Below, one piece after another: positions 5,161 through 28,659 of a DNA stretch of 32,000 nt. Within the stretch, counting starts at the first letter, position 1. Each line of letters begins with the position of its first letter. The notes under the pieces were generated by a model, which saw only the letters and a program-made list of their open reading frames with translations, searched no databases and had not been told where the DNA came from. A program made the translations under genes and the position numbers. The DNA is taken from NCBI GenBank assembly GCA_964549275.1, contig CAZJUP010000007.1, positions 17,633 through 49,632 of the forward strand, written 5' to 3'. This DNA comes from an uncultured bacterium. GTDB lineage: Bacteria; Fidelibacterota; Marinisomatia; Marinisomatales; TCS55.

Positions 5161-5167
5161 TTAAACC

Positions 5168-5563
5168 ATGACCGGAAAACGCAGATTTAAAGGGGGAGAG
5201 ATCCCCACCGCATCCATGGCGGATATTGCTTTTCTGCTGCTTATTTTCTTTCTTGTGACAACCACTATTGATATGGATAAGGGGTTGGGTATTGTTTTGC
5301 CGGCAGAGGGACAAGAAATTGAAATTAGCAAAAAGAATATTGTAAACTGCCTGATTAATTCCACTGGGAAGGTATTGCTTGGGGGTGAACCTGTTGAGGT
5401 CCGAAATCTTAATAAGGTTATCCGCCAAAAATTAGCTGAAAATGATAAAATGGTTATCTCCGTTAAGGCCCACGAAAAAACGCCCTACAAAGATTATATT
5501 CTTGTCATTGATCAACTAAAAATGGCTAACGCAACCCGAATTTCCATTGCGGAGACCGGATAA
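5168..5563 (+). CDS. exbD: Biopolymer transport protein ExbD/TolR
   Basis: 131 aa with the typical ExbD N-terminus 'IPTASMADIAFLLLIFFLVTT', including the conserved Asp in the TM helix. Confidence 0.85.
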   Translation: MTGKRRFKGGEIPTASMADIAFLLLIFFLVTTTIDMDKGLGIVLPAEGQEIEISKKNIVNCLINSTGKVLLGGEPVEVRNLNKVIRQKLAENDKMVISVKAHEKTPYKDYILVIDQLKMANATRISIAETG

Positions 5564-5975
5564 TATGAAAATAAAGAAAAAAACCGAAATAAGCAGTGAC
5601 ATTCCAACAGCATCTATGCCGGACATTATTTTTATGCTACTTATTTTCTTCATGGTGACAACTGTTCTTCGTGAATTTTCCGGGCTTCCCATAGATTTAC
5701 CAAAAGCAAAGCGAATTGAAAAACTTAAATCAAAGCGCCACACTTCTCACATATGGGTTTCAAAAGACGGTCTTATCTCTATCGAAGATAAGCTCTATGA
5801 GGCAGAAGCCATTAAACACATCATGTATGATAAACGTGTTGAAGATCCCCAAATAGTTATTTCTCTCAAAGCAGATGAACGAGCAAGAATGGGACTCATT
5901 TCAGAAGTACATTCGCAATTAAGAAAAGCGGATGCCCTGAAATTAAACTACTCATCGAAAACAGCTGTAGATTAA
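5547..5975 (+). CDS. exbD: Biopolymer transport protein ExbD/TolR (second paralogue)
   Basis: 142 aa with 'IPTASMPDIIFMLLIFFMVTT'. It overlaps the preceding exbD by 17 nt. Confidence 0.85.
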   Translation: MRRPDNMKIKKKTEISSDIPTASMPDIIFMLLIFFMVTTVLREFSGLPIDLPKAKRIEKLKSKRHTSHIWVSKDGLISIEDKLYEAEAIKHIMYDKRVEDPQIVISLKADERARMGLISEVHSQLRKADALKLNYSSKTAVD

Positions 5976-5984
5976 GGCAATTTT

Positions 5985-6608
5985 ATGAGATCTGAAAAAT
6001 CAGCTTCACTTAAATATTTATACCCGCTCGTGGTGCGTGCAACCGGATTGCTCGGTATTGTATTGCTTATAACAGCATTTTTGCTTTTTCCCCGGTTCGT
6101 TGCCAAAATGGAGCTGGAAGAAGAGGTGCAAATCGTTATTGAACAAATTGATATTCCACAAACGCAACAATTTGATCGCCCGCCACCCCCCTCAAGACCT
6201 TCTGTCCCCGTTGAATCTGAAAGCGAAGATATTGCAGACGATGTAACTCTGGATGAATTTTCGTTGGATGAGTTTGAATCCTGGGATGCTCCACCGCCAC
6301 CCCCAGAAGGACCCCGGGTAAAATTTATTCCCTATGATGACCCGCCACAACCTCTGAGCCCCATAAGACCGAAATATCCTGAAATTGCTCAAGAGGCTGG
6401 TATTGAAGGAACTGTTGTTGTCCAAGTTTTTGTTGATGATAAGGGGCGCGTTAAAGAAACATCTGTTTTAAAAGGGATTCCGAACACTGGATTGGACGAG
6501 GCGGCGGTTGATGCTATTCGTTCTGTTCGGTTTAAACCAGCAAAACAGCGAGAGCGACCTGTTGGAGTTTGGATATCAATTCCTGTAAACTTCAGATTAA
6601 AAAGTTGA
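5985..6608 (+). CDS. tonB: Energy transducer TonB (Pro-rich spacer plus TonB_C domain)
   Basis: 207 aa with an N-terminal TM anchor, proline-rich stretches (RPPPPSRPSVP, APPPPPEGP) and a C-terminal TonB_C-like 'YPEIAQEAGIEGTVVVQVFVDDKGRV...RFKPA'. Confidence 0.85.
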   Translation: MRSEKSASLKYLYPLVVRATGLLGIVLLITAFLLFPRFVAKMELEEEVQIVIEQIDIPQTQQFDRPPPPSRPSVPVESESEDIADDVTLDEFSLDEFESWDAPPPPPEGPRVKFIPYDDPPQPLSPIRPKYPEIAQEAGIEGTVVVQVFVDDKGRVKETSVLKGIPNTGLDEAAVDAIRSVRFKPAKQRERPVGVWISIPVNFRLKS

Positions 6609-18022: not shown

Positions 18023-19414
18023 TTAAATCGACTCGAACTTCGCAGTAAAGTGTCGTAAAAAAGGAGGTTGTTCAATAATGTTGAATCCTTTCATGGCCTT
18101 TCTCTTTTCATATATACCTCGAGCTACTTCTATCACATAGTCAATGTGGCTTTGGGTGTGCGTTCTCCTGGGAAGGGCCAGCCGGACCAACTCCATTGCT
18201 GCTGGGGTTTCCTGATGTGATCCTTCTATTTTTTTCCCAAACATTACAGAACCAATTTCACATGTTCTTATTCCACCCGCTAAATATAACTCAACGGCCA
18301 AACTTTGCCCTGGATATTGACTGGGCGGAACATGAGGAAGTAATGCTTTTGCGTCCAAATAGACAGCATGCCCACCAGGTGGCTGAATAATGGGGAATCC
18401 CATTTCTGAGAGATGGTCACCAAGATATTGGGCTTCGGCCAAACGATATTTTAAATAGTCTTCTTCCAAGACTTCTTCGAGACCAACAGCTATAGCTTCC
18501 AAATCTCTCCCGGCTAATCCCCCATAAGTTGGAAAGCCTTCAGTCAGAATCAATAAATCTTTTTCTTCTCTTGCCAACTCGTCATTGTTTGTACACAGAA
18601 ATCCTCCAATGTTGGCCAACCCGTCCTTCTTGGCGCTCATGGTACATCCATCGGCAAAGGACATCATTTCTTTCACAATGTCTTTAACTGATTTTTCTTT
18701 GTATCCCGGCTCGCGCAGCTTGATGAAATATGCGTTTTCTGCAAATCTAGCGGCATCAAAGTATAGCGGTATCTTATAAGGGGCTAATACCGCTTTCACT
18801 GCTTTGATGTTTTCCATAGAAACAGGCTGCCCGCCTCCTGAATTATTCGTAACAGTTAGCATGCAGAGAGGAATTTTCTCAGGTCCATTTTTTTGAATAA
18901 GTGATTTAAGTTTTTTTACATCCATATTACCTTTGAATGGATGCACAACCTCAGGATCTTTTCCCTCTTCGATTACTAAATCTTCCGCAGTGGCACCTTG
19001 AAACTCAACATTGGCTCTTGTGGTATCAAAATGAGTGTTATTCGGAACAATATCTCCCGGTTTACACATCACTGAAAACAAAATGCGCTCTGCAGCTCTG
19101 CCTTGATGGGTTGGAATAACATTGGAAAAACCTAATATATCCATTATTGCTGCTTCAAAACGCAAAAAACTGTCGCTTCCTGCATAGGATTCGTCCCCCT
19201 GCATCATGGCTCCCCATTGTTTAGAACTCATCGCACCTGTCCCACTATCTGTTAAAAGGTCTATGAGTACATCCCGAGCTCGAATTTTAAATAAATTATA
19301 ATTAGCATTTTTAACAACATTTTCCCTTTCGTCTCTAGTGGTCATTCGTATTGGTTCCACAGATTTTATAATAAACGGTTCAATTACAGTTCTAAACTCG
19401 TGTTTAATAGACAT
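18023..19414 (-). CDS. tnaA: Tryptophanase (beta-eliminating lyase family; tyrosine phenol-lyase not excluded)
   Basis: 463 aa with 'EPFIIKSVEPIRMTTRDERE', 'DLLTDSGTGAMS', PLP-Lys motif 'MSAKKDGLANIGGFL', 'EGFPTYGGLAGRD' and C-terminal 'LRHFTAKFESI'. The last three are closer to my recollection of E. coli TnaA than of TPL. Confidence 0.85.
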   Translation of the reverse strand: MSIKHEFRTVIEPFIIKSVEPIRMTTRDERENVVKNANYNLFKIRARDVLIDLLTDSGTGAMSSKQWGAMMQGDESYAGSDSFLRFEAAIMDILGFSNVIPTHQGRAAERILFSVMCKPGDIVPNNTHFDTTRANVEFQGATAEDLVIEEGKDPEVVHPFKGNMDVKKLKSLIQKNGPEKIPLCMLTVTNNSGGGQPVSMENIKAVKAVLAPYKIPLYFDAARFAENAYFIKLREPGYKEKSVKDIVKEMMSFADGCTMSAKKDGLANIGGFLCTNNDELAREEKDLLILTEGFPTYGGLAGRDLEAIAVGLEEVLEEDYLKYRLAEAQYLGDHLSEMGFPIIQPPGGHAVYLDAKALLPHVPPSQYPGQSLAVELYLAGGIRTCEIGSVMFGKKIEGSHQETPAAMELVRLALPRRTHTQSHIDYVIEVARGIYEKRKAMKGFNIIEQPPFLRHFTAKFESI

Positions 19415-19439: not shown

Positions 19440-19470
19440 TTAAAAAGCCCCCGAATAGGGGGCTTTTCTT
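19440..19470 (-). terminator. Rho-independent terminator after the FliG-like gene
   Basis: The minus strand reads aaaaGCCCCCtattcGGGGGCttttt. It begins about 15 nt after the stop at 19484 and lies about 26 nt upstream of the tnaA start. Confidence 0.75.
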
Positions 19471-19483
19471 TTACTCTAACGAT

Positions 19484-20416
19484 CTACTCGACCATCTCCG
19501 CCCCACCCAGCAAATCTTCCAAACGGAACGCACCATCTTTCTCCATTTGTTTGGCGGATTGAACTACTATTTTTCGGGCATTGTCAACATCTCGCTTTGG
19601 AATGGCTCCCTCTACAGGTTCATACATAGCCTGTTTTTTTTGTGGGAGATTTTCGATAACCCTCTTTGTGACCGCTTCTGGCATTCCTTTTAAAGCAAGG
19701 GCCACCGAATCCAGTTCAACTGAGTTCATGAGATCGCGCAGTAAGTTGTCCGGCATAATATCAAATATTCCTTCAAAGGTCAGATGGTATTTTTTTACTT
19801 CTTCTGCTAAATCGGGATTTTCTTGAGTAAGGTTTTTTAAAAACCGTATTTCATCTTCAGGATCCATTTCACCTAAAATATCGGCTAAATCTTTTCCTCC
19901 CCCACGAGAAAAAGATACAGTTTTTGGCAAAGATTGAGATTTCTTCTTTAATCTGTTTGCTATCTGAACAACCGCTTCTAATGGCACATCGTTTAAGTTC
20001 CCAATCTCTAACAGCACCTTCCCTTTAATTTCTTGGCGAATTCTGTTTAAAACCACCATCCGTTTTTCAGAAGACAGCTGCGCGACTGTAATGGCAATAA
20101 CCCTTGAAGATTCCGCGCTAAGCATGGCAATAGTTTGCTCATCAGTTAATTCTTCCAAAAAGGCAAATGGCTTTTTTGGTTCGTCGCTGTCCTCTTCTTG
20201 AAATTTCTCACTTACAAAGCTGAAATAAAACTCTTCCATTACCCTTTTTTTTACTGAAAAAGATACCATTTCAACACCTCTCATTGCCGATCGAATTTTA
20301 CGAACCTCGGTTTTGTCCAGGTTTTTTACTAGACTAAGAGCAAGGCTTTCTCCCAATACAGAAAAAAGAATAGCGACTTTTTGCAGTCCAGAAAGACGAT
20401 TATAATCGGTAATCAT
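19484..20416 (-). CDS. FliG-like rotor protein (three-domain FliG homologue, divergent middle-domain motif)
   Basis: 310 aa that aligns by eye along the whole of E. coli FliG. N-terminus 'LSGLQKVAILFSVLGESLALSLVKNLDKTEVRKIRSAM'; Gly-Gly hinge 'RGGGKDLADILGEMD'; 'LTFEGIFDI' at the MFxFE position; C-terminal 'LDSVALALKGMPEAVTKRVIENLPQKK...IPKRDVDNARKIVVQSAKQMEKDGAF'. AAGAGG lies 5 nt upstream of the ATG. Confidence 0.8.
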   Translation of the reverse strand: MITDYNRLSGLQKVAILFSVLGESLALSLVKNLDKTEVRKIRSAMRGVEMVSFSVKKRVMEEFYFSFVSEKFQEEDSDEPKKPFAFLEELTDEQTIAMLSAESSRVIAITVAQLSSEKRMVVLNRIRQEIKGKVLLEIGNLNDVPLEAVVQIANRLKKKSQSLPKTVSFSRGGGKDLADILGEMDPEDEIRFLKNLTQENPDLAEEVKKYHLTFEGIFDIMPDNLLRDLMNSVELDSVALALKGMPEAVTKRVIENLPQKKQAMYEPVEGAIPKRDVDNARKIVVQSAKQMEKDGAFRLEDLLGGAEMVE

Positions 20417-20425
20417 GGGGGCCTC

Positions 20426-21967
20426 TTATTTTTTCTTTTTCTTATTTTTGCCACTTTCATCTTCGGGAGCCTGTTCCGTGGGCGCTTGTTGTTCCTGTTC
20501 TGTTGGTGCTTCTTCCTGTATCCACTCTTTTACAATCTTTTGTGCTGCAGAGGGTTGACCTACGCTCATTGAGACTACCGCCTGCTTCATATCATTAACC
20601 TCGCTTTGGAGAACAGCAATATCTTCTTTGCTTGGTGGACTTTGAACAGCTTCATCAGGCTTTTTTACGGATTTTTTTGTTCCGTTATCACTTTTTTTTT
20701 TCGGTCGAGGTGGATACATCCAAGGTGGTGGAGGCATCATTTGTTGCTTTGGTTTATTCATTAACACAAAAGCAAGGACGACAATCAAGACAATAACCAG
20801 AGCCCCCAACACAGCAATAAAAATGATCATCGCGGTATTTCCGGAACCACCTTGCCGATCTAAGTCCTCCTGTACTGTTTCTAACATAGCTAATTTTTCA
20901 GCAATTTGCTGATCAAGATTTGATTTTTCACCAAGTTTTTTCTGAATTGAAGATTCGGCCTCCGTTACAGCTGAATCGGAAACACCCCCCGCGCCTAAAA
21001 ATGCTTTTAAATTCTGAATTTCTTCATTAAGTGCATTTAATCGAACGGAGTCTCCCCTTAAAATATCCTGCTTTTGCTGTTCATAGGCTCTATCCCTTGC
21101 GCTAGATTCCAACTCTGTTAGTTTTGATTGAAAATACAGGCGATCTTCTTGGCGACGGTCTGCTTCTTCCTGTTTGTAATTTGCCAACTCCTCCTTCCAA
21201 TCGACTTCTCCCAGACGTTCTCTCTGTGTTTCCAGAGACTCGAGTTTTTCTGCAATGCTTTTTAATAAAACTTGTTCTGCGGTTTTTTCATCGCGCCTTT
21301 CCTTAAAAGAGGCTGTCATTATACTAAGCACATCTCCTCGAGCGCGGTTAAACCTTGAAGCAACCATCACGACCTGACGAATATTTTCAATCAGCTCTGG
21401 AGCTGCACCTTCTTGTAGAATAATACTGATCTCTATGTTGCGTATCTTTGCCAAAGCCGGATGTTTTTCTGTGTGTGTTCGAGACAATACATTGTCACTA
21501 GACCATCCGGATTCTATTTTGTTTTCTATATCATTACTTGAAACAGGTTCTTCTAAAGGTCTTGAATCTTCAGTATCAAAATCAAACCCAGGTATGGGAA
21601 GTCCAACACCAGACGAAGGAAGGATGTTTTGACCCTCTTTGCTTGTAGATTCTAACTTGCTGGCATCTAATTCATAATCTGATGGGGTCGGCGCTCCGGA
21701 TTTAAAGGTGGTTTGCTCTTCTACTGCACTGCTGAGTTCGAGGTCCACACTAACATCTACTACATATTTTCTGTTGTCAATTATTTTTTCGAGAGCATCT
21801 GTAATGCGTTTCCGCAGGCTGTTTTCAACCATTAATTTTTGTGCAAGATACCCTCCGGATTGTCCCCATCCAATGCCGATAATCATTATGAAAGTTAGAG
21901 CGGTTATAATTGCTCTTTTAATCCGCATTATCATATAAACTCCCTTATTCATTCTCAGAGGAATCAT
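20426..21967 (-). CDS. FliF-like bitopic ring protein: TM1, single RBM3-like module, long coiled coil, TM2, cytoplasmic tail
   Basis: 513 aa. TM1 is about aa 17-35. 'VENSLRKRITDALEKIIDNRKYVVDVSVDLEL' and 'IRNIEISIILQEGAAPELIENIRQVVMVASRFNRARGDVLSIMTASF' resemble the two halves of FliF RBM3. A heptad-rich, E/K/Q-rich segment spans about aa 222-372, and TM2 is about aa 378-404. The tail 'QPSAAQKIVKEWIQEE' resembles the FliF C-terminal FliG-binding helix. The start forms an ATGA overlap with the motB stop. Confidence 0.65.
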   Translation of the reverse strand: MIPLRMNKGVYMIMRIKRAIITALTFIMIIGIGWGQSGGYLAQKLMVENSLRKRITDALEKIIDNRKYVVDVSVDLELSSAVEEQTTFKSGAPTPSDYELDASKLESTSKEGQNILPSSGVGLPIPGFDFDTEDSRPLEEPVSSNDIENKIESGWSSDNVLSRTHTEKHPALAKIRNIEISIILQEGAAPELIENIRQVVMVASRFNRARGDVLSIMTASFKERRDEKTAEQVLLKSIAEKLESLETQRERLGEVDWKEELANYKQEEADRRQEDRLYFQSKLTELESSARDRAYEQQKQDILRGDSVRLNALNEEIQNLKAFLGAGGVSDSAVTEAESSIQKKLGEKSNLDQQIAEKLAMLETVQEDLDRQGGSGNTAMIIFIAVLGALVIVLIVVLAFVLMNKPKQQMMPPPPWMYPPRPKKKSDNGTKKSVKKPDEAVQSPPSKEDIAVLQSEVNDMKQAVVSMSVGQPSAAQKIVKEWIQEEAPTEQEQQAPTEQAPEDESGKNKKKKK

Positions 21968-22770
21968 CCTCGTTTTTTCTTTCTTTTAGTATTCTGAACT
22001 TCGGATTCAGAAACACCAACGGGTCCACCCCGGGGTGCTAAAAATGTAATTTCTACTCTTCGATTTCTCGCTTTTTGTTCTGCAGTCTGGTTATATTTTT
22101 GAATCAATTCTGGGGTGATTATTTCAGCTGTACTTTTATCTCTTGGGACAAACTCACCATAACCAACCGCTTCTAATCTAGTCGGAGAAATTCCCAATGA
22201 AATCAGTAGCCTTACCACAGCTGCGGCCCTGGCTCCTGACAACTCCCAATTGCTCGGATATTTTACCCTTAATGCCTTGGGAAGGGGATCGCTGTCTGTG
22301 TGGCCTTCTATGGCTACTAAAAAATGAGAGGCCTGTATTGTGGGAACCAACTTTTTTAAAATTTCTAAAAAGGTTGGTTTTGTTTCCGCGGAGCCAGATC
22401 TGAAACTTATATCCGACGAAATTCCAATTGTCACCCCTTTGGGTCCCGTCGAAACTTCAACAGGTTTTTCACCTGTTTTGGGGTCTGCCTCCATTTTTTT
22501 AACCATTTGTTCAGCCGCTTTCTTAATATCAGATAATGACATCGCCTGGCTGTCTTTTTTAATTTTACTTCCAACAGATTTTCCCATTGAATCTGCCATC
22601 TCCTGCAGTTTTACAGGATCGATCGTAGAGATAGCTGCAAGCAAAACAAAAAAGGCAAACAGGAGAGTCATCATATCAGCAAAAGTTCCAAACCACCCCG
22701 GAAGCCCTTCATCGACCTCTTGCATTCCCATTTCCAAAAATTTCTTTTTTTCCTGTGGTGTTACTGCCAT
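21964..22770 (-). CDS. motB: Flagellar-type stator protein MotB (OmpA-like peptidoglycan-binding C-terminus)
   Basis: 268 aa. The N-terminal TM segment carries the conserved Asp ('WFGTFADMMTLLFAFFVLLAA'). The C-terminal OmpA/MotB motif is 'IEGHTDSDP...SNWELSGARAAAVVRLL...LEAVGYGEFVP'. Confidence 0.88.
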   Translation of the reverse strand: MAVTPQEKKKFLEMGMQEVDEGLPGWFGTFADMMTLLFAFFVLLAAISTIDPVKLQEMADSMGKSVGSKIKKDSQAMSLSDIKKAAEQMVKKMEADPKTGEKPVEVSTGPKGVTIGISSDISFRSGSAETKPTFLEILKKLVPTIQASHFLVAIEGHTDSDPLPKALRVKYPSNWELSGARAAAVVRLLISLGISPTRLEAVGYGEFVPRDKSTAEIITPELIQKYNQTAEQKARNRRVEITFLAPRGGPVGVSESEVQNTKRKKKRG

Positions 22771-22775
22771 TCAGA

Positions 22776-23564
22776 TTAGCTCTCGTCTTTTTTCCATTCT
22801 TTTGGCGGAATGTATGAGTTTAATTTTTCTCTGACAATTATTGGGTGTTTCTTCTGATGAATCAAACGAGAAGCTTCTACAAGCATGTTTTGCATCGTGC
22901 TTGTAAAGGTAATCCGAGTTCTGAGTTTATCCGCCATGGGGAGAAAAAACAGATTAGCAAACACCGCTCCATAAAATGTGGTGATTAATGCTGCTGACAT
23001 TCCAGATCCCAATGCTTCCGTTCCACCTCCATCTCCACCAAATCCTGAAAGCATGATAACAAGCCCGATAAGTGTTCCTATCATTCCCCAGGCAGGCGCC
23101 ATAACCCCCATGGATTTAAACAGGCTTGCCTGTGTTTTTTCGCGGACTTCTCTATAATCAATTCTTGTGTATAAAATTTCTGTTAGTTCCTCAAGAGAGT
23201 ATCCATCTACCACCATTTGAACCCCATCCCTAAAAAACGGATTTTTAACGGTATCAATCGATTTTTCAAGTTCAGCAGCCCCTTTTCTCCCTACTTCTGA
23301 TACAGCAACAGCATCTTCCACAACTGTTCCTAAAGTCAATTTACTTCCTTTAAAGACAGCTGCCATTGCCGATCCAAGCTTTAAGACATCCGACAAAGGA
23401 AAAGCCACAGATACAGAGGCAACCATCCCACCAAAGACAATGGCAAAACTAGAAGGAGATAAAAATCCTCCCATTCCCGCGCCAGCTGCAGTTGCGGCCA
23501 ACCAAATCCCCCCTCCAATAGAGCCTAAACCAAGAACAATTCCAATCAGGGTTGCAATATCCAT
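22776..23564 (-). CDS. motA: Flagellar-type stator protein MotA/PomA
   Basis: 262 aa that is collinear with my recollection of Vibrio PomA. 'MDIATLIGIVLGLGSI', cytoplasmic loop 'VGRKGAAELEKSID' (equivalents of the charged R/E), and the conserved prolines in 'VMAPAWGMIGTLIGLV' and 'LFFLPMADKL'. GAGGA lies 6 nt upstream of the ATG. Confidence 0.9.
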   Translation of the reverse strand: MDIATLIGIVLGLGSIGGGIWLAATAAGAGMGGFLSPSSFAIVFGGMVASVSVAFPLSDVLKLGSAMAAVFKGSKLTLGTVVEDAVAVSEVGRKGAAELEKSIDTVKNPFFRDGVQMVVDGYSLEELTEILYTRIDYREVREKTQASLFKSMGVMAPAWGMIGTLIGLVIMLSGFGGDGGGTEALGSGMSAALITTFYGAVFANLFFLPMADKLRTRITFTSTMQNMLVEASRLIHQKKHPIIVREKLNSYIPPKEWKKDES

Positions 23565-23566
23565 AT

Positions 23567-24949
23567 CTAATCCTCAATAAAACTGGTAGATTTTAATCGA
23601 TTTTCGTGCAATGCCTTTAATACATTGCGAACATCATCATATTCCGGATCCATGCGTAAGGCAAGGTTCCAATTAATTGTAGCGCGCTGAATATCTCCCA
23701 ACTTGTAATAAATGGACCCTCTCCTTGCATAGGCTAATGCCAAATTTGGATTAAGGTCCAATGCTGCCTCTACAGATTCTAAAGCGCCACGATAGTCACC
23801 GGCATAAAAATAGCGAAGGGATCTTGATAAATGCCGCATGGCATCATTCATATTTTTTTCGCTTACATTCCGATTTAGCTTCACGGCTTTCAATGAATCT
23901 TCTAAAAACTTTGAATGCTGCTCCATTGCGGCAAGCCGAGTCATGAGATTGCGCATTTCGTTTGTCATCATTCCCATGGAGTCTCGCAACGTGTGAACAG
24001 CAACATCTGCCATAAGGAGCGTTGAGTCCATATCTGCTGGATAGCCTCCTGCTGAGCGCGTTCCGGGAAGAACTAGCCCCGGCTGTTCGGGTGTTGGTGC
24101 CGGCCCACCGCCAGGGAGACGACGAAGAGATGCTCCCCTTGGAACCGACATATCCATGCCCAAGGTGATTCCCGGATGTCCTTTCCAATAACGAGAGTTC
24201 CATGAAGGTAATTTTTCTATGTGGGTGAACCCAAGGTTCAGGCGGTAATCCGAGGTAAGGGGGATGCGGAGTCCCACATTGATACCTGTACCATCGAATT
24301 CACCCACAATATCTATTCCACCCCATTTTTCAAAATAAGGTGTGTTAACAATAACCCCCGCAAAAACGCCGGCTCTGGTACCAGAGGAACTGCTCGTATC
24401 TGCTACAGATAATGTATCAGCCGCTCCAAAGCCCCCAGTTCCAAAGCCAATAAACGTATTCATGTCATATTGACCGAGTTTTTTCTCACTATTCACAACA
24501 CCGAAAAACGACAATTCTTTCGGGTCAAGTCTTAATCCGCTTGTGCCCGCATTTTCAAAAACAATATCCTGCAACCCAACAGAAAAGGAGACGTCATTAT
24601 ATATAAACACCCGTTGTTGAAAATGGAACCCAAACTCAACCGGTGCCCTATAGGTTGACACTTCAAGGTTTGCAAGGGAGGTTGTGTCTGCACCCTGAAT
24701 AGATGAAAAACCGAAAATTGTATTTTTCCCGAACTCCATATTGAAGTACGCACCCTTGGCTGTGTTAAAGGGAGCCATATTATGAATTTCCGAACCAAAC
24801 CCCACCCTGAACAAATATGGCGACTTAGACACTGAGCTAAACGGAATTCTCATCATAGGACCAGGTCGAGTATAAGCGACCCGGGTTGCGCTAAATCCTA
24901 CAGAGGATAAAGAAATTATTATAATTACGAATACAAAAAATCGTTTCAT
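23567..24949 (-). CDS. Secreted beta-rich domain protein with Pro/Gly linker, helical segment and C-terminal TPR repeats
   Basis: 460 aa with signal peptide MKRFFVFVIIIISLSSVGFSA. The N-terminal ~250 aa is Gly/Phe/Thr-rich with alternating patterns (possible beta-barrel). Linker 'LPGGGPAPTPEQPGLVLPG', then TPR-like 'YFYAGDYRGALESVEAALDLNPNLALAYARRGSIYYKLGDIQRATINWNLALRMDPEY'. Confidence 0.6.
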   Translation of the reverse strand: MKRFFVFVIIIISLSSVGFSATRVAYTRPGPMMRIPFSSVSKSPYLFRVGFGSEIHNMAPFNTAKGAYFNMEFGKNTIFGFSSIQGADTTSLANLEVSTYRAPVEFGFHFQQRVFIYNDVSFSVGLQDIVFENAGTSGLRLDPKELSFFGVVNSEKKLGQYDMNTFIGFGTGGFGAADTLSVADTSSSSGTRAGVFAGVIVNTPYFEKWGGIDIVGEFDGTGINVGLRIPLTSDYRLNLGFTHIEKLPSWNSRYWKGHPGITLGMDMSVPRGASLRRLPGGGPAPTPEQPGLVLPGTRSAGGYPADMDSTLLMADVAVHTLRDSMGMMTNEMRNLMTRLAAMEQHSKFLEDSLKAVKLNRNVSEKNMNDAMRHLSRSLRYFYAGDYRGALESVEAALDLNPNLALAYARRGSIYYKLGDIQRATINWNLALRMDPEYDDVRNVLKALHENRLKSTSFIED

Positions 24950-25851
24950 GGCATGACTTCTGCTTTTTTTATTTCCATTTGTGCTAATCGCACATATTCA
25001 CTTGCGGGATGCTGATTCACAATACTGGAGAAAGCATTAAGCGCCTTTGTTTCCATTCCCATTTTTCTATAAAGTAGGCCTTTTTGAACAATGGCGTCCA
25101 CAGTTCTTTCTGCCCCATCCTCTTCAATCCTCTTCAACAGAGACAAAGAAGATGAATAGTCTCCGATCTGCTGGTAGGCATCGGCCATCCAATAGCGAAT
25201 GTTCTCGGCTGTTTTCTTTGGAGCTAAATCAAGACTTAATTGATTAAACTTATCCAATGCGCTTTCAAAGTCTTCCCTTTGATACGCAAAAACTCCTGAC
25301 ATATATAACGACGAATCAAAAAGCCTGGCTGGAGTTCTGGTGTTTTTGACTTCAACAACATCCAGATTGTGACCTATTGGTTTTTCTGGTTTTTTCTGTT
25401 TAGGCTGCAGGATTATTTCTTTATCCACAGCCAAATCAGCTGAACTGTCCGTTTTTTGGTTTTTTGGAGGGTTTTTTTGAAGAGCAACAAGAGATTTTCG
25501 AAGTTCAGTGTTTTCGATTTTTAACTCTTTCATTTCTTTTCGAAAAGATGTTTCAAGTAGTTCAATTCGACGATTAATCCTTTCAAGGGCTCCTATCATT
25601 TCTTTTGAGGACGCCATATATACTGAGCCGCTTTCCACCTTTTTAACACGGAAATTAACCTCTTCTGATGTCGGTTTAATTACACGAGAGTAGGTGACTT
25701 TTTCATCCACCGGTTCGATAACAATACCCAAATCCAAAAAAAATATATCAGAAATTGGAGCCGGTTCAGTTTGGGTAAAAACAGCGCCGAAAAGCGCAAA
25801 CCCGACAACGGATTTTATCCAGGGTTTACAACTTAAGGCTACTTTACCCAT
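24946..25851 (-). CDS. CpoB/YbgF-like periplasmic protein (N-terminal coiled coil plus C-terminal TPR)
   Basis: 301 aa with a signal/anchor segment. Coiled coil 'LERINRRIELLETSFRKEMKELKIENTELRKSLVALQ', a Lys/Pro-rich spacer, then TPR-like 'AYQREDFESALDKFNQL...IRYWMADAYQQIGDYSSSLSLL...NQHPASEYVRLAQMEI'. This architecture matches the Tol-Pal accessory protein CpoB. ATGA overlap with the downstream gene. Confidence 0.55.
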   Translation of the reverse strand: MGKVALSCKPWIKSVVGFALFGAVFTQTEPAPISDIFFLDLGIVIEPVDEKVTYSRVIKPTSEEVNFRVKKVESGSVYMASSKEMIGALERINRRIELLETSFRKEMKELKIENTELRKSLVALQKNPPKNQKTDSSADLAVDKEIILQPKQKKPEKPIGHNLDVVEVKNTRTPARLFDSSLYMSGVFAYQREDFESALDKFNQLSLDLAPKKTAENIRYWMADAYQQIGDYSSSLSLLKRIEEDGAERTVDAIVQKGLLYRKMGMETKALNAFSSIVNQHPASEYVRLAQMEIKKAEVMP

Positions 25852-26993
25852 TATTCATATTCCTCCCAATCAATGACATAAGAATATCCAATAAATGACC
25901 CAAAATCGTGGGGTACATATAATTCAAATGCACCAGATGCGCCCGGGAGTAACGTGGCATCAGTTGTTATACCTGAATCAAATGTGTGATACCCTCCTCT
26001 GATAAATGTTGTTAGTGTCTTAGTCTCTCCGCTCCAGTTTGTTCTAAATACGAAATCTACTTTCACAAAATCTGCTCTTCGGCCACCAATGTTTTTTATT
26101 TCACCTGTAAAAACAACATTCCCCTGAGCGTCTTTCTTTTCACTTATATTTCCGACTAAGACACAGTTTGCAGAATATTTTTTGGTTCCGGATTTTTCTG
26201 AGGCTGTCGAGGTATATTTCGGCTCTGCGAGCTTTGGCATTGGGGGCGGTGTATAGCTATCGCGAACCTGTTCGGGTACATATTCCTGCTGTTCTTCGGT
26301 AACAACATTATCAATTATTCGAACAATATCTTTTCGCTGGATAATTAAATACCCCACCAGCGTTTCGACTTTTAGCGATTCCTCGTCTTGGTATACCACT
26401 TTTCCAAACACCGTGGACCCGTTTTTAAGGATAATCTCTTTTGAATAAATCGCCAGGGGGTTAACCCACATTTTACTTAATGCTTTTAGGTTTTCAAGTT
26501 CCTCGTTAAGATATTTTAACTCTGCGGTCATTTTTTTAACCTCAAAACTGAGTTCATTTAAAACATAGTCTTTCCCCGGGTCAGGTTTAAATTCAATATC
26601 CTCCGGACCTGGGCCTTCAACGTTTACTGTATCTGTTGATACATTAGTAGTAGATTGTTCTAGCCCTAATACTACTTCTCCCAGTTTTACATTATCGTCA
26701 ACCACTTCAAGGGGAAGGTGAACTTTTCCTGATTCACCTGCGTCAGATTCAATAATATATTTTCCGGGAAGTACTTTTTTAAATTCAAATTTGCCACCAC
26801 CCCGGCCTAACCGTTTTTTTGACGATTCGGTCCTCTGCGCTTCTGTTCCGTCTTCCTTCAACAGCAGCACGGCTGTTTTTGCAACACCCTTGCCCTTTTC
26901 ATCGATCAGTTGTCCTGAAACTTTGAAGGAATCCTTAGCAAATATATTAGATACAAATACGGTGAGGGCCACCACATATAATATTCTTTTCAT
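25851..26993 (-). CDS. Secreted protein with N-terminal CarboxypepD_reg-like beta-sandwich, coiled coil and C-terminal beta-sandwich-like domain
   Basis: 380 aa with signal peptide MKRILYVVALTVFVSNIFA. 'FKVSGQLIDEKGKGVAKTAVLLLKEDG...KFEFKKVLPGKYIIES' resembles the carboxypeptidase-regulatory-like fold. A short coiled coil is 'VKKMTAELKYLNEELENLKAL'. The C-terminal part is 'VFTGEIKNIGGRRADFVKVDFVF...GAFELYVP'. TAATG overlap with the downstream gene. Confidence 0.55.
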   Translation of the reverse strand: MKRILYVVALTVFVSNIFAKDSFKVSGQLIDEKGKGVAKTAVLLLKEDGTEAQRTESSKKRLGRGGGKFEFKKVLPGKYIIESDAGESGKVHLPLEVVDDNVKLGEVVLGLEQSTTNVSTDTVNVEGPGPEDIEFKPDPGKDYVLNELSFEVKKMTAELKYLNEELENLKALSKMWVNPLAIYSKEIILKNGSTVFGKVVYQDEESLKVETLVGYLIIQRKDIVRIIDNVVTEEQQEYVPEQVRDSYTPPPMPKLAEPKYTSTASEKSGTKKYSANCVLVGNISEKKDAQGNVVFTGEIKNIGGRRADFVKVDFVFRTNWSGETKTLTTFIRGGYHTFDSGITTDATLLPGASGAFELYVPHDFGSFIGYSYVIDWEEYE

Positions 26994-27067
26994 AGCGTAT
27001 CTCTTGCCAATTATAATAACCTCGGATTGTATAGCACCTGAAGGACTCCGACCATCAGGCGCTGGAA

Positions 27068-27096
27068 AGTTTAGCCCCTTTCTAGTCTTGAATCAA
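27068..27096 (-). promoter_or_regulatory. Candidate sigma70-like promoter for the motor-like operon
   Basis: The minus strand reads TTGATT (27096-27091), a 17-nt spacer, then TAAACT (27073-27068). It lies in the only sizeable gap (149 nt) in this gene run, about 75 nt upstream of the ATG at 26993. This is a pattern match only. Confidence 0.25.
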
Positions 27097-27142: not shown

Positions 27143-27700
27143 CTATTTCCAAAAATCTTCAAATGTTTTTTTTCGCCGAAGAAGCACACTTCTCTCTGCT
27201 TCAACGCGCTGTCTCAATGTGTCCGATAAGGTGCGTTGAAGAGCTTTATCATAGGATTCTAAAGCCAGTTCAAAATCTGAATCATCTTTTTTTTCATAAC
27301 ACTTAGCCATCCAATAGTGGGGTTCTCCGGCAGTATCAATTGCTGTGGCAGCTTGACCAAAACAAACCAAAGCTTCCCATTGGGCATTTTTATAGTTTTT
27401 TTGTAATAACCGGTGACCATCTATCATAGCAAGTTCATATCGTGCCACGGTGTTTTTGGGGTCCAACTTGAGGACTTTTTTATACTCAAACTCGGCGCCT
27501 ATGGAAGTTTTCGCTAAATTTAAATGAGCAGTAACTAAAGCAGATTTCAGTTCTGCATCACCAGGGCGTTTTGCCAATAAGGAATCTTCTGCCGCAACCA
27601 ATAGGGCGGGATCTTTCTTTGCCATCACCATGGGTGACGGGGCACACCCGAAGATAATAACAATGACCAATAAACCCAAAAAATTGTGCTTATTTAGCAT
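27143..27700 (-). CDS. Lipoprotein with TPR-like repeats
   Basis: 185 aa with signal plus lipobox-like 'LLVIVIIFGC'. TPR-like helices 'YKKVLKLDPKNTVARYELAMIDG', 'HYWMAKCYEKKDDSDFELALESYDKALQ'. Confidence 0.6.
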   Translation of the reverse strand: MLNKHNFLGLLVIVIIFGCAPSPMVMAKKDPALLVAAEDSLLAKRPGDAELKSALVTAHLNLAKTSIGAEFEYKKVLKLDPKNTVARYELAMIDGHRLLQKNYKNAQWEALVCFGQAATAIDTAGEPHYWMAKCYEKKDDSDFELALESYDKALQRTLSDTLRQRVEAERSVLLRRKKTFEDFWK

Positions 27701-27726: not shown

Positions 27727-28659
27727 CTATCCTGCAAAGCTAAACAAATTATTATTGTCTTTAAATGCAGAATATACCGCCGACATGGAATCGGCCACAT
27801 AGTAACGATCCTGAATTTCACTGTAATCGAATCGTGTCATTACAATTTCCTCAATATCAAAAGGCAAAAACTTCGAGCGGTTCGACTCTCTTTTTGCACA
27901 TTTTACAATGTTGGATGTTTCATCAAAAGAGGAAATAATTCCAGCTCCGTATATTTCAAACTCAATATCATTGTCCTTTCTTCTGAATTTATCAGCAGAT
28001 CCTGTATTTTTTATTAATCCAAATTCATAGGTCCACCAGGCAAAATTCTGAAGTCGTTTCAAATTGTGAGAAACCAACTCGGGGCCTAAATCGTTTTCAT
28101 CTTTTAAAATTTTAAACCCCAGCAATCCCACGTCGTGCAAAAAGTCCGCATACTTTTTATTCATTAAAAAGGGGACGTGTCCTTGAATATCATGAAATAT
28201 GTCCGGTTCTGGGGTGTATCCTTCATCGTTTTGTATTTTTACCCCTTCGTACTTTTCAGAAAAGCGCGGGGATTTTCTTATGATATCCGTTACGGGAAAC
28301 TTTCTCCGCCTGTTCAAATCAAAAAACAATTCTTCATCTAAAAAACCCGATACGGGAATAAGTTCCCAACCTGTAGAATTTTCTATGATGGGTGAAATAG
28401 CTTCAAACTCTGGAAATCGATCGTGGGGTATTGGAAGAGCTCTCATTCCCATAAGATATTCTCTTGATGCATATTGATTCAACAGTGGTTCTAAATTAAT
28501 AAAAAGGTTTTCCCAAATACTGTTCTCTAAGTTATTCACATTTCCGTAGTCTTGGGGTTTGAGATAATCATCCTTAGTCCCAAATATTTGAATTCCCCGT
28601 ACAGCGTGTGGCACTACATTTTGAAAAAGGTGATCGTACTGAGTGTGTTGTTCTGTCAT
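27727..28659 (-). CDS. phhA: Phenylalanine-4-hydroxylase (biopterin-dependent aromatic amino acid hydroxylase)
   Basis: 310 aa with iron-binding 2-His-1-carboxylate context 'EPDIFHDIQGHVPFL', 'FAWWTYEFGLI' and 'YGAGIISS'. Confidence 0.85.
   Translation of the reverse strand: MTEQHTQYDHLFQNVVPHAVRGIQIFGTKDDYLKPQDYGNVNNLENSIWENLFINLEPLLNQYASREYLMGMRALPIPHDRFPEFEAISPIIENSTGWELIPVSGFLDEELFFDLNRRRKFPVTDIIRKSPRFSEKYEGVKIQNDEGYTPEPDIFHDIQGHVPFLMNKKYADFLHDVGLLGFKILKDENDLGPELVSHNLKRLQNFAWWTYEFGLIKNTGSADKFRRKDNDIEFEIYGAGIISSFDETSNIVKCAKRESNRSKFLPFDIEEIVMTRFDYSEIQDRYYVADSMSAVYSAFKDNNNLFSFAG

What the first reader, a model, noticed from the sequence alone, without database searches (positions are those of the whole stretch)
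19484..26993. Orphan rotor-stator operon: MotA-MotB-FliF-like-FliG-like fused to TPR/CpoB-like envelope genes, with no other flagellar genes nearby
Seven minus-strand genes are translationally coupled. The junctions are a TAATG overlap at 25851, ATGA overlaps at 24946-24949 and 21964-21967, and gaps of 2, 5 and 9 nt. The run is bounded by a 149-nt gap upstream and a strong terminator downstream. The last four genes encode a canonical flagellar-type stator (MotA with both conserved prolines and the charged loop; MotB with the TM Asp and an OmpA domain), a FliF-like ring protein and a FliG homologue. The first three encode secreted TPR, coiled-coil and beta-sandwich proteins that have no place in flagella. 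None of fliH/I/J, fliM/N, flhA/B, fliPQR, rod, hook or filament genes is present in the 32 kb window. The flanking genes are amino-acid catabolic. In established flagellar biology FliG exists to couple MotAB torque to the FliF MS-ring. Finding only that torque-generating core wired to periplasmic and outer-membrane-type partners suggests a PMF-driven rotary or force-transducing envelope machine with a non-flagellar output. Gliding, surface-adhesin movement, outer-membrane maintenance or secretion are possibilities. I know of no characterised system with this composition.
Basis: partly seen in the sequence, partly recalled or inferred. Interest (0 to 1): 0.92.

Follow-up and report, generated by a model that had tools for sequence, protein, structure and literature searches.

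The report
Flagellar motor core without a flagellum
An operon conserved across the abundant ocean bacteria Marinimicrobia (SAR406) encodes the torque-generating core of a flagellar motor (MotA, MotB, FliG, a cut-down FliF) together with periplasmic and probable outer-membrane partners but no other flagellar parts nearby, which points to an undescribed ion-driven envelope machine.

Summary
Seven tightly coupled minus-strand genes (26993 to 19484) have their own sigma-70-like promoter and a strong terminator.

Profile searches confirm four flagellar-type proteins:
- MotA and MotB of the flagellar stator type.
- A three-domain FliG.
- A FliF-derived protein that keeps only the RBM3/collar region, one membrane helix and a FliG-binding-like tail.

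The first three genes encode a transthyretin-like/coiled-coil protein, a CpoB-like TPR protein, and a probable 12-strand outer-membrane beta-barrel fused to TPR repeats.

The organism is a Marinimicrobia (SAR406/Fidelibacterota) bacterium. At least 190 species-level genomes carry the FliF-like gene. The gene order is the same in every inspected locus with enough flank, and dN is 0.1-0.46 while dS is saturated.

The torque-interface charges are conserved on both MotA and FliG. The FliM-binding EHPQR motif and FliF RBM1/RBM2 are missing. The only cultured member of the phylum is non-motile, and I found no paper describing this operon.

Best reading: a flagellum-derived, non-flagellar, PMF-driven rotor-stator envelope machine with unknown output. 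Genome-wide absence of other flagellar genes could not be tested.

The parts
27068..27096 (-). Sigma-70-like promoter of the operon: -35 TTGATT at 27096-27091, a 17-nt spacer, and -10 TAAACT at 27073-27068.
   Evidence: In an alignment of the 160 nt upstream of g1 from the window and 19 related loci, CTTGA(C/T)A-N17-TA(A/C)A(A/C)T lines up in nearly all lineages. The single-sequence consensus scan did not flag it. The assignment rests on conservation and is inferred, not mapped.
27034..27062 (-). Stem-loop in the 5' UTR (GCGCCUGA...UCAGGUGC).
   Evidence: Minimum free energy is -17.7 kcal/mol, z = -2.1. Seven related loci fold into an 8-10 bp hairpin at the same place with unrelated stem sequences. 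RNAalifold found no consensus and there is no Rfam match.
27019..27027 (-). Invariant ATCCGAGGT box, a ribosome-binding region.
   Evidence: CCGAGGT is identical in all 16 aligned leaders. In most loci it lies 5-9 nt before the start codon. In the window the in-frame ATG lies 25 nt after the box.
25851..26993 (-). g1 (380 aa), a secreted protein. Order of parts: signal peptide, transthyretin/CarboxypepD_reg-like beta-sandwich, coiled coil, small beta domain, proline-rich linker, C-terminal beta-rich domain.
   Evidence: CarboxypepD_reg matches 19 of 20 family members, best 4e-12. The family profile hits a NOMO beta-sandwich at 1.5e-11. There is a weak Lepto_7_Nterm match at residues 181-227. 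Relatives are 51-78% identical.
24946..25851 (-). g2 (301 aa), an exported protein with a coiled coil and a CpoB/YbgF-like TPR domain. It is an accessory gene, absent in some lineages.
   Evidence: The family profile hits CpoB (6g5s) at 3e-10 and YbgF (2xev) at 8e-9. TIGR02795 scores 34.8 bits, below its cut-off of 90.1. There is no room for this gene between g1 and g3 in 9 of 60 loci.
23567..24949 (-). g3 (460 aa). Order of parts: signal peptide, probable 12-strand outer-membrane beta-barrel (about residues 45-270), proline-rich linker, long helix (309-382), then TPR repeats.
   Evidence: The AlphaFold2 model has 12 hairpin-connected strands but low confidence (pLDDT 56.6). The Foldseek PDB top hits are nearly all outer-membrane-type barrels such as OmpG, FapF, KdgM, NanC and a designed 12-strand barrel, at E 1e-4 to 1e-3. 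Most strands (about 9 of 12) alternate hydrophobic and polar residues; composition is 12% Gly and 14% aromatic. TPR_2 scores 2.8e-10. No Pfam family covers the barrel part.
22776..23564 (-). MotA (262 aa), flagellar-type stator A subunit.
   Evidence: PF01618 scores 1.6e-26. The best solved relatives are flagellar MotA and PomA at 2.5e-38 to 5e-28. The best NCBIfam matches are MotP, MotA and PomA. R93, E100 and both prolines are invariant in 73 relatives. It does not match ZorA.
21964..22770 (-). MotB (268 aa): transmembrane helix with the conserved Asp, plug, and OmpA-like peptidoglycan-binding domain.
   Evidence: PF13677 scores 7e-16 and PF00691 scores 3e-13. Flagellar MotB and PomB in the PDB match at 6e-23 to 3e-20. 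FADMMTLL and NWELS..RA are conserved in 69 relatives.
20426..21967 (-). g6 (513 aa), a FliF-derived protein. Order of parts: probable signal peptide, RBM3 homologue with a collar-position insertion carrying a GLPIPGF motif (residues 36-222), roughly 150-residue coiled coil, transmembrane helix (377-403), cytoplasmic tail with a FliF-like FliG-binding helix, then a poly-lysine end.
   Evidence: PF08345 scores 1.3e-9 over residues 59-221, and there is no PF01514 match. A profile of 26 family members hits only FliF at the top of the PDB list: Salmonella FliF 241-524 at 7e-6 and Vibrio FliF 270-460 at 1e-5. The tail aligns to the last 27 residues of Vibrio FliF (hhalign P 3.4e-4, probability 38%). 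The tail is invariant within the family. The coiled coil is modelled at pLDDT 85-90.
19484..20416 (-). g7 (310 aa), a FliG homologue with N, M and C domains.
   Evidence: FliG_N 1e-13, FliG_M 7e-8 and FliG_C 6e-17. T. maritima FliG matches at 1e-20. The charged helix K260 K261 ... E266 ... E269 ... K274 R275 is conserved in 79 relatives, while EHPQ is replaced by ESSR and only the E is conserved. TIGR00207 scores 106.5 bits, below its cut-off of 226.7.
19442..19468 (-). Intrinsic terminator that closes the operon.
   Evidence: An 11-bp stem with 6 G-C pairs, followed by TTTTTAATTT.
27143..27700 (-). g0 (185 aa), a TPR lipoprotein with a lipobox (IFGC). It is a frequent neighbour but probably not part of the unit.
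   Evidence: It lies upstream of the conserved g1 promoter. In several lineages an M32 carboxypeptidase gene separates it from g1. It is the fastest-evolving gene of the set, at 28-59% identity.

Best explanation
This is a flagellum-derived but non-flagellar machine found so far only in Marinimicrobia: every labelled record I inspected is Marinimicrobia, though 110 of the 190 genome hits were not shown.

Proposed mechanism:
1. MotA5B2-type stator units are anchored to peptidoglycan by MotB. They use the proton (or sodium) gradient to push on a conserved charged helix of FliG.
2. FliG is held at the membrane by the cytoplasmic tail of a cut-down FliF (g6).
3. g6 keeps only the ring-forming RBM3/collar module and carries it on a long periplasmic coiled coil.
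4. The resulting rotor has no export gate, rod, hook or filament, and no FliM/FliN switch.
5. It works with a secreted beta-sandwich/coiled-coil protein (g1), a probable outer-membrane beta-barrel with periplasmic TPR repeats (g3) and, in most lineages, a CpoB-like TPR protein (g2). These may descend from the periplasmic stator scaffolds of complex flagellar motors.
6. The output of the motion or force is in the periplasm or outer membrane. Candidates are movement of surface or outer-membrane proteins, or envelope maintenance. The output is unknown.

Shown: the homologies, the conservation, the operon structure and the loss of specific flagellar motifs.
Inferred: ring formation, rotation, the topology of g6 and the contacts with g1-g3.
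For: - Homology: Pfam, NCBIfam and PDB profile hits for MotA, MotB, FliG and FliF RBM3.
- The rotor-stator interface is under selection on both sides. MotA R93/E100 and FliG K260 K261/E266/E269/K274 R275 are invariant or at least 90% conserved in 73-79 relatives. The MotB Asp and plug are also conserved.
- FliF-FliG coupling appears retained. FliG_N is present, and the g6 tail is invariant and aligns with the FliF C-terminal helix.
- Flagellum-specific features are lost. There is no PF01514 (RBM1/RBM2), the EHPQR motif is not conserved, and the equivalog cut-offs for FliF and FliG are not met.
- It is a conserved unit. 190 species-level genomes carry a g6 relative. The best 80 are all Marinimicrobia or unnamed MAGs, with the same gene order down to 34% g6 identity. 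It also occurs on a 1.886 Mb contig.
- dN is 0.1-0.46 with dS saturated.
- The operon has its own sigma-70-like promoter, conserved across lineages.
- g3 is a probable outer-membrane barrel.
- Flanks are housekeeping metabolism genes that differ between lineages.
- The only cultured member of the phylum is non-motile. Two comparative-genomics papers on the phylum never mention flagella or motility.
Against: - No complete Marinimicrobia genome could be scanned for other flagellar genes, so a full flagellum encoded elsewhere is not excluded.
- Both structure models are of low confidence (pLDDT 56 and 56.6). The barrel assignment rests on modest Foldseek E-values.
- The tail-to-FliF alignment is weak (probability 38%).
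- Whether the g6 N-terminus is a cleaved signal peptide or a first transmembrane helix was judged by eye only.
- Nothing tested here shows that a ring forms or turns, or that g1-g3 contact the motor proteins.
- I did not establish whether the non-motile isolate Fidelibacter multiformis carries the operon.
- Related FCB phyla such as KSB1 clades do have full flagella.
Confidence: 0.6

Rival explanations
1. This is the motor module (rotor, stator and periplasmic stator scaffold) of a genuine, perhaps unusual, flagellum. The export apparatus, rod, hook and filament genes lie elsewhere in the genome.
For: - All four core proteins are of the flagellar type.
- TPR, beta-sandwich and coiled-coil periplasmic scaffolds next to motAB are common in flagellated bacteria (PMC11870540).
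- Flagellar genes are often scattered over several loci (established knowledge).
- Related FCB lineages are flagellated.
- Whole genomes were not scanned.
Against: - g6 lacks RBM1/RBM2, which in the MS-ring surround the export gate, and it has a roughly 150-residue coiled coil between RBM3 and the membrane.
- The FliG EHPQR motif that binds FliM is not conserved.
- The promoter is sigma-70-like rather than sigma-28- or sigma-54-type.
- The cultured phylum member is non-motile.
- No flagellar gene occurs within about 10 kb in any of the loci whose flanks were inspected.
- The carrier genomes are about 1.9-2.0 Mb, and no paper reports flagella in SAR406.
Confidence: 0.12
2. This is a Tol-Pal-like force transducer or tether rather than a spinning rotor. 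The MotAB units energise conformational work on a static g6/FliG platform. That platform links the inner membrane, peptidoglycan and outer membrane through the coiled coil, the CpoB-like protein and the barrel-TPR protein, for outer-membrane integrity or cell division.
For: - The g2 TPR domain is closest to CpoB/YbgF (TIGR02795 is the top NCBIfam hit).
- The operon combines a 5:2-type motor, a long helical periplasmic protein and an outer-membrane component, as Tol-Pal does (established knowledge).
- A ring tied to a fixed outer-membrane barrel would not spin freely (inference).
Against: - g2 is absent in 9 of 60 loci.
- MotA and MotB are clearly of the flagellar type, with a plug and an OmpA domain, and are not TolQ/TolR-like.
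- The FliG torque-helix charges and the MotA R/E pair, which are the residues used for torque, are the conserved ones.
- There is no TolA, TolB or Pal homologue in the operon.
Confidence: 0.2
3. This is a decaying remnant of a lost flagellum with no present function.
For: Remnant flagellar genes occur in non-motile species, and 11% of non-motile species keep at least one rotor protein without a filament (PMC12199754).
Against: - All reading frames are intact and closely spaced (mostly overlapping or a few nt apart) in 60-80 species-level genomes.
- dN is 0.1-0.46 with saturated dS.
- FliG is 53-81% identical to the window protein across the relatives inspected.
- The promoter and leader are conserved.
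- The operon is retained in streamlined genomes of about 1.9 Mb.
Confidence: 0.03

Closest known systems
Bacterial flagellar motor core (MotA5B2 stator, FliG C-ring top, FliF MS-ring)
   Same: - MotA has the R/E charged loop and both prolines.
- MotB has the channel Asp, a plug and an OmpA-like domain.
- FliG has N, M and C domains, the Gly-Gly linker and a charged C-terminal helix.
- g6 has the FliF RBM3 with an insertion at the beta-collar position, a transmembrane helix and a C-terminal helix resembling the FliG_N-binding one.
   Different: - FliF RBM1/RBM2 are absent.
- The N-terminus of g6 looks like a cleavable signal peptide.
- A coiled coil of about 150 residues lies between RBM3 and the membrane, and the protein ends in poly-lysine.
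- FliG lacks EHPQR and has a torque helix 3 residues shorter.
- No FliM/N, export apparatus, rod, hook or filament genes lie nearby.
- The promoter is sigma-70-like.
- The curated equivalog cut-offs for FliF, FliG, MotA and MotB are not reached.
Periplasmic stator scaffolds of complex flagellar motors (Campylobacter PflA/PflB spokes and rim, FlgY E-ring; spirochaete FlcA collar)
   Same: These are secreted proteins built from a beta-sandwich plus TPR repeats, TPR repeats alone, or a coiled coil. They are encoded beside motAB and, in those motors, hold MotB and surround the FliF beta-collar (PMC11870540). g2 gives a weak match to the FlcA C-terminus (1.3e-3).
   Different: There is no sequence-level membership, and TPR similarity is generic. 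g3 adds a probable outer-membrane barrel that PflA and PflB lack. Here the scaffold-like proteins accompany a rotor with no axial structure.
Tol-Pal system with CpoB (TolQRA-TolB-Pal-CpoB)
   Same: It is an ion-driven 5:2-type inner-membrane motor with a long helical periplasm-spanning partner, an outer-membrane partner and a CpoB/YbgF-type TPR protein with a coiled coil.
   Different: The motor here is flagellar MotAB, not TolQR. There is no TolA, TolB or Pal. A cytoplasmic FliG and a FliF-type ring module are present. The CpoB-like gene is dispensable in some lineages.
Gliding and type IX secretion motor of Bacteroidota (GldLM/PorLM driving the GldKN/PorKN ring)
   Same: It belongs to the same FCB superphylum. 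The concept is the same: an inner-membrane ion-driven rotary unit that transmits motion across the periplasm to an outer-membrane-associated ring. SAR406 genomes carry many T9SS-type C-terminal sorting domains (PMC5596340).
   Different: No homology to GldL/M/K/N was detected. There are only generic TPR hits to PorW/SprE (2e-4). The rotor here is FliG/FliF-derived.
Myxococcus Agl-Glt gliding machinery
   Same: It combines a MotAB/TolQR-family motor with periplasmic TPR proteins and outer-membrane barrels. g2 gives a weak hit to GltC (5.6e-6, 25 bits against a cut-off of 450).
   Different: AglRQS belong to the TolQR-like clade and have no FliG or FliF partner. There is no membership evidence.

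Membership tests
Flagellar stator MotA/MotB (flagellar ion-transporter clade) | MotA_ExbB channel domain, with solved flagellar MotA/PomA as the closest relatives. | tested here: met
   PF01618 scores 1.6e-26. The top PDB hits are all flagellar MotA or PomA, at 2.5e-38 to 6.5e-16.
Flagellar stator MotA/MotB (flagellar ion-transporter clade) | MotA cytoplasmic-loop charges (E. coli R90 and E98) and prolines P173 and P222. | tested here: met
   R93, E100 and both prolines are invariant in 73 family members.
Flagellar stator MotA/MotB (flagellar ion-transporter clade) | MotB transmembrane Asp, plug helix and OmpA-like peptidoglycan-binding domain. | tested here: met
   PF13677 scores 58 bits and PF00691 scores 50.5 bits. 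FADMMTLL is invariant.
Flagellar stator MotA/MotB (flagellar ion-transporter clade) | Reaches a curated NCBIfam equivalog score for MotA, MotB, PomA or MotP. | tested here: not met
   The best scores are 168 bits against a cut-off of 394 (MotP) and 153 against 283 (MotD).
FliG (flagellar rotor / switch protein) | Three domains: FliG_N, FliG_M and FliG_C. | tested here: met
   All three are above Pfam's gathering scores. T. maritima FliG matches at 1e-20.
FliG (flagellar rotor / switch protein) | Charged torque helix in FliG_C (E. coli R281, D288, D289, R297). | tested here: met
   The +/-/-/+ pattern K260 K261, E266, E269, K274 R275 is conserved in 79 members. The helix is 3 residues shorter than in T. 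maritima.
FliG (flagellar rotor / switch protein) | EHPQR motif of FliG_M, which binds FliM. | tested here: not met
   EHPQ is ESSR in the window protein, and only the E is conserved in the family.
FliG (flagellar rotor / switch protein) | TIGR00207 equivalog score. | tested here: not met
   106.5 bits against a cut-off of 226.7.
FliF (MS-ring protein) | RBM1 and RBM2 (Pfam PF01514, YscJ_FliF). | tested here: not met
   There is no PF01514 match at E up to 0.1. The protein begins directly with the RBM3-like region.
FliF (MS-ring protein) | RBM3 with a beta-collar (Pfam PF08345). | tested here: met
   PF08345 scores 39.1 bits against a cut-off of 23.8. The family profile hits FliF 241-524 (Salmonella) and 270-460 (Vibrio) at 7e-6 and 1e-5. 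GLPIPGF aligns near FliF's G(I/V)PGALSNQ motif.
FliF (MS-ring protein) | Two transmembrane helices that bracket the periplasmic part. | tested here: inconclusive
   The C-terminal transmembrane helix (377-403) is clear. The N-terminal hydrophobic segment ends in a small residue followed by a near-invariant Gln, like a signal-peptidase site. No signal-peptide predictor was available.
FliF (MS-ring protein) | C-terminal cytoplasmic helix that binds FliG_N. | tested here: inconclusive
   The tail is invariant within the family and aligns to the last 27 residues of Vibrio FliF, but only at hhalign probability 38%, P 3.4e-4. Binding was not tested.
FliF (MS-ring protein) | TIGR00206 equivalog score. 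| tested here: not met
   22.9 bits against a cut-off of 129.75.
Complete bacterial flagellum | Export apparatus (FlhA/B, FliPQR, FliHIJ), switch (FliM/N), rod, hook and filament genes in the same genome. | not testable with these tools
   None is present in the 32 kb window, in about 10 kb beyond one end, or in the flanks of the related loci that were examined. Whole genomes could not be read.
Tol-Pal / CpoB | TolQ/TolR motor with TolA, TolB and Pal. | tested here: not met
   The motor proteins score best as flagellar stators. There are no TolA, TolB or Pal matches in the operon.
Tol-Pal / CpoB | CpoB (YbgF): coiled coil plus C-terminal TPR, reaching the TIGR02795 cut-off. | tested here: inconclusive
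   The architecture is similar, and the family profile hits CpoB at 3e-10. TIGR02795 scores 34.8 bits against a cut-off of 90.1.
Zorya anti-phage system (ZorAB) | ZorA with a long tail, plus ZorB and effector genes. | tested here: not met
   MotA has no PADLOC hit. Only MotB matches the ZorB models, through the shared MotB fold.
Gliding / T9SS motor (GldLM, GldKN) and Agl-Glt | Homologues of GldL/M/K/N, or of AglRQS and the Glt proteins. | tested here: not met
   There are only sub-threshold TPR hits, to PorW/SprE (20 bits against 250) and GltC (25 bits against 450).

The most novel reading that the evidence does not exclude
This is a new class of envelope-spanning rotary machine. A FliG/FliF-derived ring is turned by MotAB, has no secretion apparatus or axial filament, and transmits torque through a periplasmic coiled-coil-borne ring to an outer-membrane barrel/TPR complex. 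It would operate in one of the most abundant bacterial phyla of the dark ocean.

A still bolder variant is that the module is not a reduced flagellum but a surviving relative of the rotor-stator device that existed before it was joined to a type III export apparatus. I put that variant at about 0.05, because g6 looks like a trimmed FliF and related phyla have full flagella.
Probability: 0.45. Interest if true: 0.92.

Novelty: new variant of a known kind. Interest (0 to 1): 0.8.

Why it matters
In characterised biology, FliG and FliF are known only as parts of the flagellum. A conserved, selected FliG/FliF-fragment/MotAB unit in apparently non-flagellated bacteria would show that the torque-generating module can work on its own with a different output.

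[quoted passage not shown]' (PMC12199754). It also bears on how the flagellum was assembled from, or can be taken apart into, functional sub-machines.

Marinimicrobia (SAR406) are among the most abundant bacteria of the ocean interior and of oxygen-deficient zones. An unknown ion-driven envelope machine kept in their streamlined genomes is therefore likely to matter for how they interact with particles, surfaces or nutrients.

The system is compact (6-7 genes), which makes it directly testable by tomography and heterologous expression.

Tried and rejected
- Zorya or another defence system: rejected. MotA has no PADLOC hit.
- Riboswitch or known RNA in the 149-nt leader: no Rfam match at either the gathering or the E-value threshold. 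RNAalifold gave no consensus structure because the stems do not align.
- AlphaFold2 of g6 with 38 close homologues gave pLDDT 56. Only the coiled coil was confident, the RBM region was unresolved, and Foldseek returned only insignificant helical hairpins.
- AlphaFold2 of g3 also had low confidence and was used only for fold class.
It was repeated with 14 sequences.
- Only the best 80 of the 190 genome hits were returned, so relatives outside Marinimicrobia may have been missed. Distant cluster representatives that carry names are all Marinimicrobia.
- dN/dS could not be computed because dS is saturated.
- Ten literature searches found no description of this operon. The paper with cryo-EM of the cultured isolate (Katayama 2024, Nat Microbiol) is not held.
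- T9SS, gliding, Agl-Glt and Bat-operon links were rejected as generic TPR similarity.
- The upstream TPR lipoprotein g0 was considered as an eighth member and set aside.

Full report
**Observation.** Their junctions are -1 (TAATG), -4, +2, +5, -4 and +9 nt. There are 149 nt in front of the first gene. An 11-bp-stem, T-tailed terminator lies at 19468-19442.

Aligning the upstream region with 19 related loci shows a conserved CTTGA(C/T)A-N17-TAAA(C/A)T promoter. In the window it is at 27096-27068. It is followed by a leader with a hairpin at a fixed position and an invariant CCGAGGT box. The unit therefore starts at g1. The TPR lipoprotein gene further upstream (27143-27700) lies outside it, and in some lineages a carboxypeptidase gene separates the two.

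**What the genes are.**
- MotA (22776-23564) and MotB (21964-22770) are flagellar-type stator proteins. Evidence is Pfam MotA_ExbB, the MotB plug and OmpA. Their closest solved relatives are flagellar MotA/PomA (2.5e-38 to 5e-28) and MotB/PomB.
- g7 (19484-20416) has FliG_N, FliG_M and FliG_C, all above Pfam's cut-offs. It aligns with T. maritima FliG at 1e-20.
- g6 (20426-21967) matches only the C-terminal FliF Pfam family, PF08345, at residues 59-221.

**The g6 family.** It is small: 193 clusters at 50% identity with E up to 1e-3 among 1.84 billion proteins. A profile of 26 diverse members finds FliF, and only FliF, at the top of the PDB list. It covers Salmonella FliF 241-524 and Vibrio FliF 270-460, which is RBM3 with the beta-collar.

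The family alignment shows these parts in order:
1. A signal-peptide-like N-terminus that ends in a small residue followed by a near-invariant Gln.
2. The split RBM3 with a conserved GLPIPGF motif at the collar position.
3. About 150 residues of coiled coil, modelled at pLDDT 85-90.
4. One transmembrane helix.
5. A proline-rich stretch.
6. An invariant tail (EDxxVLQSE...VVSMSVGQPxxAxxIVKEW) that hhalign places on the last 27 residues of Vibrio FliF (P 3.4e-4, probability 38%).
7. A poly-lysine end in most members.

RBM1/RBM2 (PF01514) are absent.

**The three upstream genes.**
- g1 has a transthyretin/CarboxypepD_reg-like beta-sandwich. It is found in 19 of 20 members, best 4e-12; the family profile hits NOMO at 1.5e-11. 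A coiled coil and further beta-rich parts follow.
- g2 has a coiled coil and a TPR domain closest to CpoB/YbgF (3e-10 and 8e-9).
- g3 has no family for its first 270 residues. A low-confidence model (pLDDT 56.6) has twelve hairpin-linked strands. Most strands (about 9 of 12) alternate hydrophobic and polar residues. Foldseek returns almost only outer-membrane-type beta-barrels, at E 1e-4 to 1e-3. A long helix and TPR repeats follow.

I read g3 as a probable outer-membrane barrel with a periplasmic TPR arm, with moderate confidence.

**Organism and conservation.** Close homologues of FliG, g6 and g3 are labelled Candidatus Marinimicrobia, Neomarinimicrobiota or Fidelibacterota. One 'Caldithrix abyssi' record looks mislabelled.

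A scan of one genome per species found 190 genomes with a g6 relative. The 80 returned are Marinimicrobia or unnamed MAGs. All 80 have g6 next to fliG. Wherever the contig reaches far enough, motB, motA, g3 and g1 precede them in the same order, even where g6 identity falls to 34%. Of 60 loci with both g1 and g3, 50 have g2 and 9 have no room for it, so the core is six genes.

Junctions stay tight in all lineages. Non-synonymous divergence is 0.1-0.46 while synonymous sites are saturated. The operon also sits on a 1.886 Mb contig, probably a nearly complete genome. Flanking genes are ordinary metabolism and differ between lineages. Distant g6 relatives that carry a name are also Marinimicrobia.

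**Flagellar or not.** The residues that make torque are the ones kept:
- MotA R93 and E100 (E. coli R90/E98) and both prolines.
- The MotB Asp and plug.
- In FliG, a conserved +/-/-/+ helix: K260 K261, E266, E269, K274 R275.

The features that tie FliG and FliF to the rest of a flagellum are gone:
- EHPQR, the FliM-binding motif, is ESSR here, and only the E is conserved.
- The RBM1/RBM2 rings that surround the export gate are missing.
- None of the four proteins reaches its curated equivalog score.

The promoter is of the housekeeping type. The only cultured member of the phylum is non-motile (PMC11652737). Two comparative-genomics papers on the phylum do not mention flagella or motility at all, and a study of SAR406 genomes reports T9SS-type sorting domains but no flagella.

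I could not read whole genomes. The absence of fliC, flhA, fliI, fliM, fliP and the rest is therefore likely but not shown.

**How it most likely works.**

Shown:
- A stator and a rotor protein with a conserved mutual interface.
- A membrane protein with a ring-building module outside the membrane and a FliG-binding-like tail inside.
- Exported partners, including a probable outer-membrane barrel.
- All of these in one transcription unit under strong constraint.

Inferred:
- g6 forms an S-ring/collar-like ring carried on a coiled-coil stalk or hairpin.
- FliG assembles under it.
- MotAB units, fixed to peptidoglycan, turn this ring with the ion gradient.
- With no FliM/FliN there is no CheY-controlled switching.
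- The motion or force is passed to g1, g3 and, where present, g2.

The output is unknown. Possibilities are movement of outer-membrane or surface proteins (a gliding or transport function) or a Tol-Pal-like envelope role. I give the non-flagellar rotor-stator reading 0.6, a Tol-like non-rotating variant 0.2, a true flagellar module 0.12 and a dead relic 0.03.

**Comparison with known systems.** The closest known system is the flagellar motor core itself. This one differs by the trimmed FliF, the added coiled coil, the lost FliM interface and the missing axial and export parts.

PflA (beta-sandwich plus TPR), PflB (TPR) and FlgY (coiled coil, around the FliF collar) scaffold the stators in Campylobacter. 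TPR genes lie near flagellar genes in about half of flagellated species (PMC11870540). g1-g3 may therefore be descendants or analogues of such scaffolds rather than a graft of Tol-like genes.

Resemblances to Tol-Pal/CpoB, GldLM-GldKN and Agl-Glt are functional analogies. They have no membership evidence beyond generic TPR hits. Zorya is excluded.

[quoted passage not shown] It described no system. A 2025 stator phylogeny treats the flagellar clade as flagellum-associated (PMC12505986). Ten full-text searches found nothing on this operon.

I class it as a new variant of a known kind (a flagellar rotor-stator module in a new context), with a substantial chance that it is a new kind of machine.

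**Limits.**
- Both structure models are poor.
- Topology and barrel calls are inferences.
- The FliF-tail alignment is weak.
- Only 80 of the 190 genome hits were seen.
- The genome-wide test that could refute the interpretation remains to be done.

Noticed in passing
window 27010-27096 (minus strand); L005-L083 upstream of g1: The operon leader is conserved in architecture across lineages: a sigma-70-like promoter, then an 8-10 bp hairpin whose sequence differs completely between lineages but whose position is fixed, then an invariant CCGAGGT box. It may be an mRNA-stabilising or regulatory 5' stem-loop. There is no Rfam match.
   Followed up: partly
window 20429-20470 (g6 C-terminus) and 21967-21990 (MotB C-terminus): In most lineages g6 ends in an acidic, proline-rich stretch followed by 4-11 lysines. 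MotB ends in KRKKKRG. Canonical FliF stops at the FliG-binding helix. The role of the poly-lysine tail (membrane binding?) is unexplained.
   Followed up: no
window 4537-6608 (+): A separate ExbB-ExbD-ExbD-TonB operon lies in the same window, so the MotAB pair is not the only MotA/ExbB-family (5:2-type) motor locus here.
   Followed up: partly
window 18023-19414 and 27727-28659; loci L005-L084: The aromatic amino-acid genes beside the operon are themselves often syntenic with it. The tyrosine phenol-lyase/tryptophanase-family gene is downstream in 22-24 of the 80 related loci, and the phenylalanine-hydroxylase-family gene is upstream in 27. No functional link is evident.
   Followed up: no
L053, L065, L067, L069, L072, L074, L078, L079, L083: These lineages lack the CpoB-like gene g2 entirely. 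g1 and g3 are only 34-50 nt apart or overlap, giving a six-gene version of the operon.
   Followed up: yes
window 26993-27027; L047: In the window and in L047 the in-frame ATG of g1 lies 17-25 nt further from the invariant CCGAGGT box than in the other loci. In those, the start follows within 5-9 nt. The closer TTG in the window is out of frame. The true start or its translation efficiency may differ.
   Followed up: partly
protein ids P0118, P0123 and P0440 (NCBI locus tags JYT44_00190, JYT44_00195 and JYT44_00210; 57,444-bp contig): A record labelled Caldithrix abyssi carries the operon at 66-77% identity to the window proteins, like marine Marinimicrobia. The organism label is probably wrong for this MAG.
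   Followed up: no
L087 2831-8823 (about 1-7 kb beyond the low-coordinate end of the window): Two large adjacent genes (1227 aa with FG-GAP, Big_9 and He_PIG repeats; 770 aa with a faint FG-GAP match) lie close to the window. They could be surface proteins and were not examined further.
   Followed up: no
window 1932-2819 (+) and 1090-1473 (+): Two reading frames have no Pfam match. The 295-aa one is called as a gene on the Logan contig just upstream of the S41 peptidase gene.
   Followed up: no
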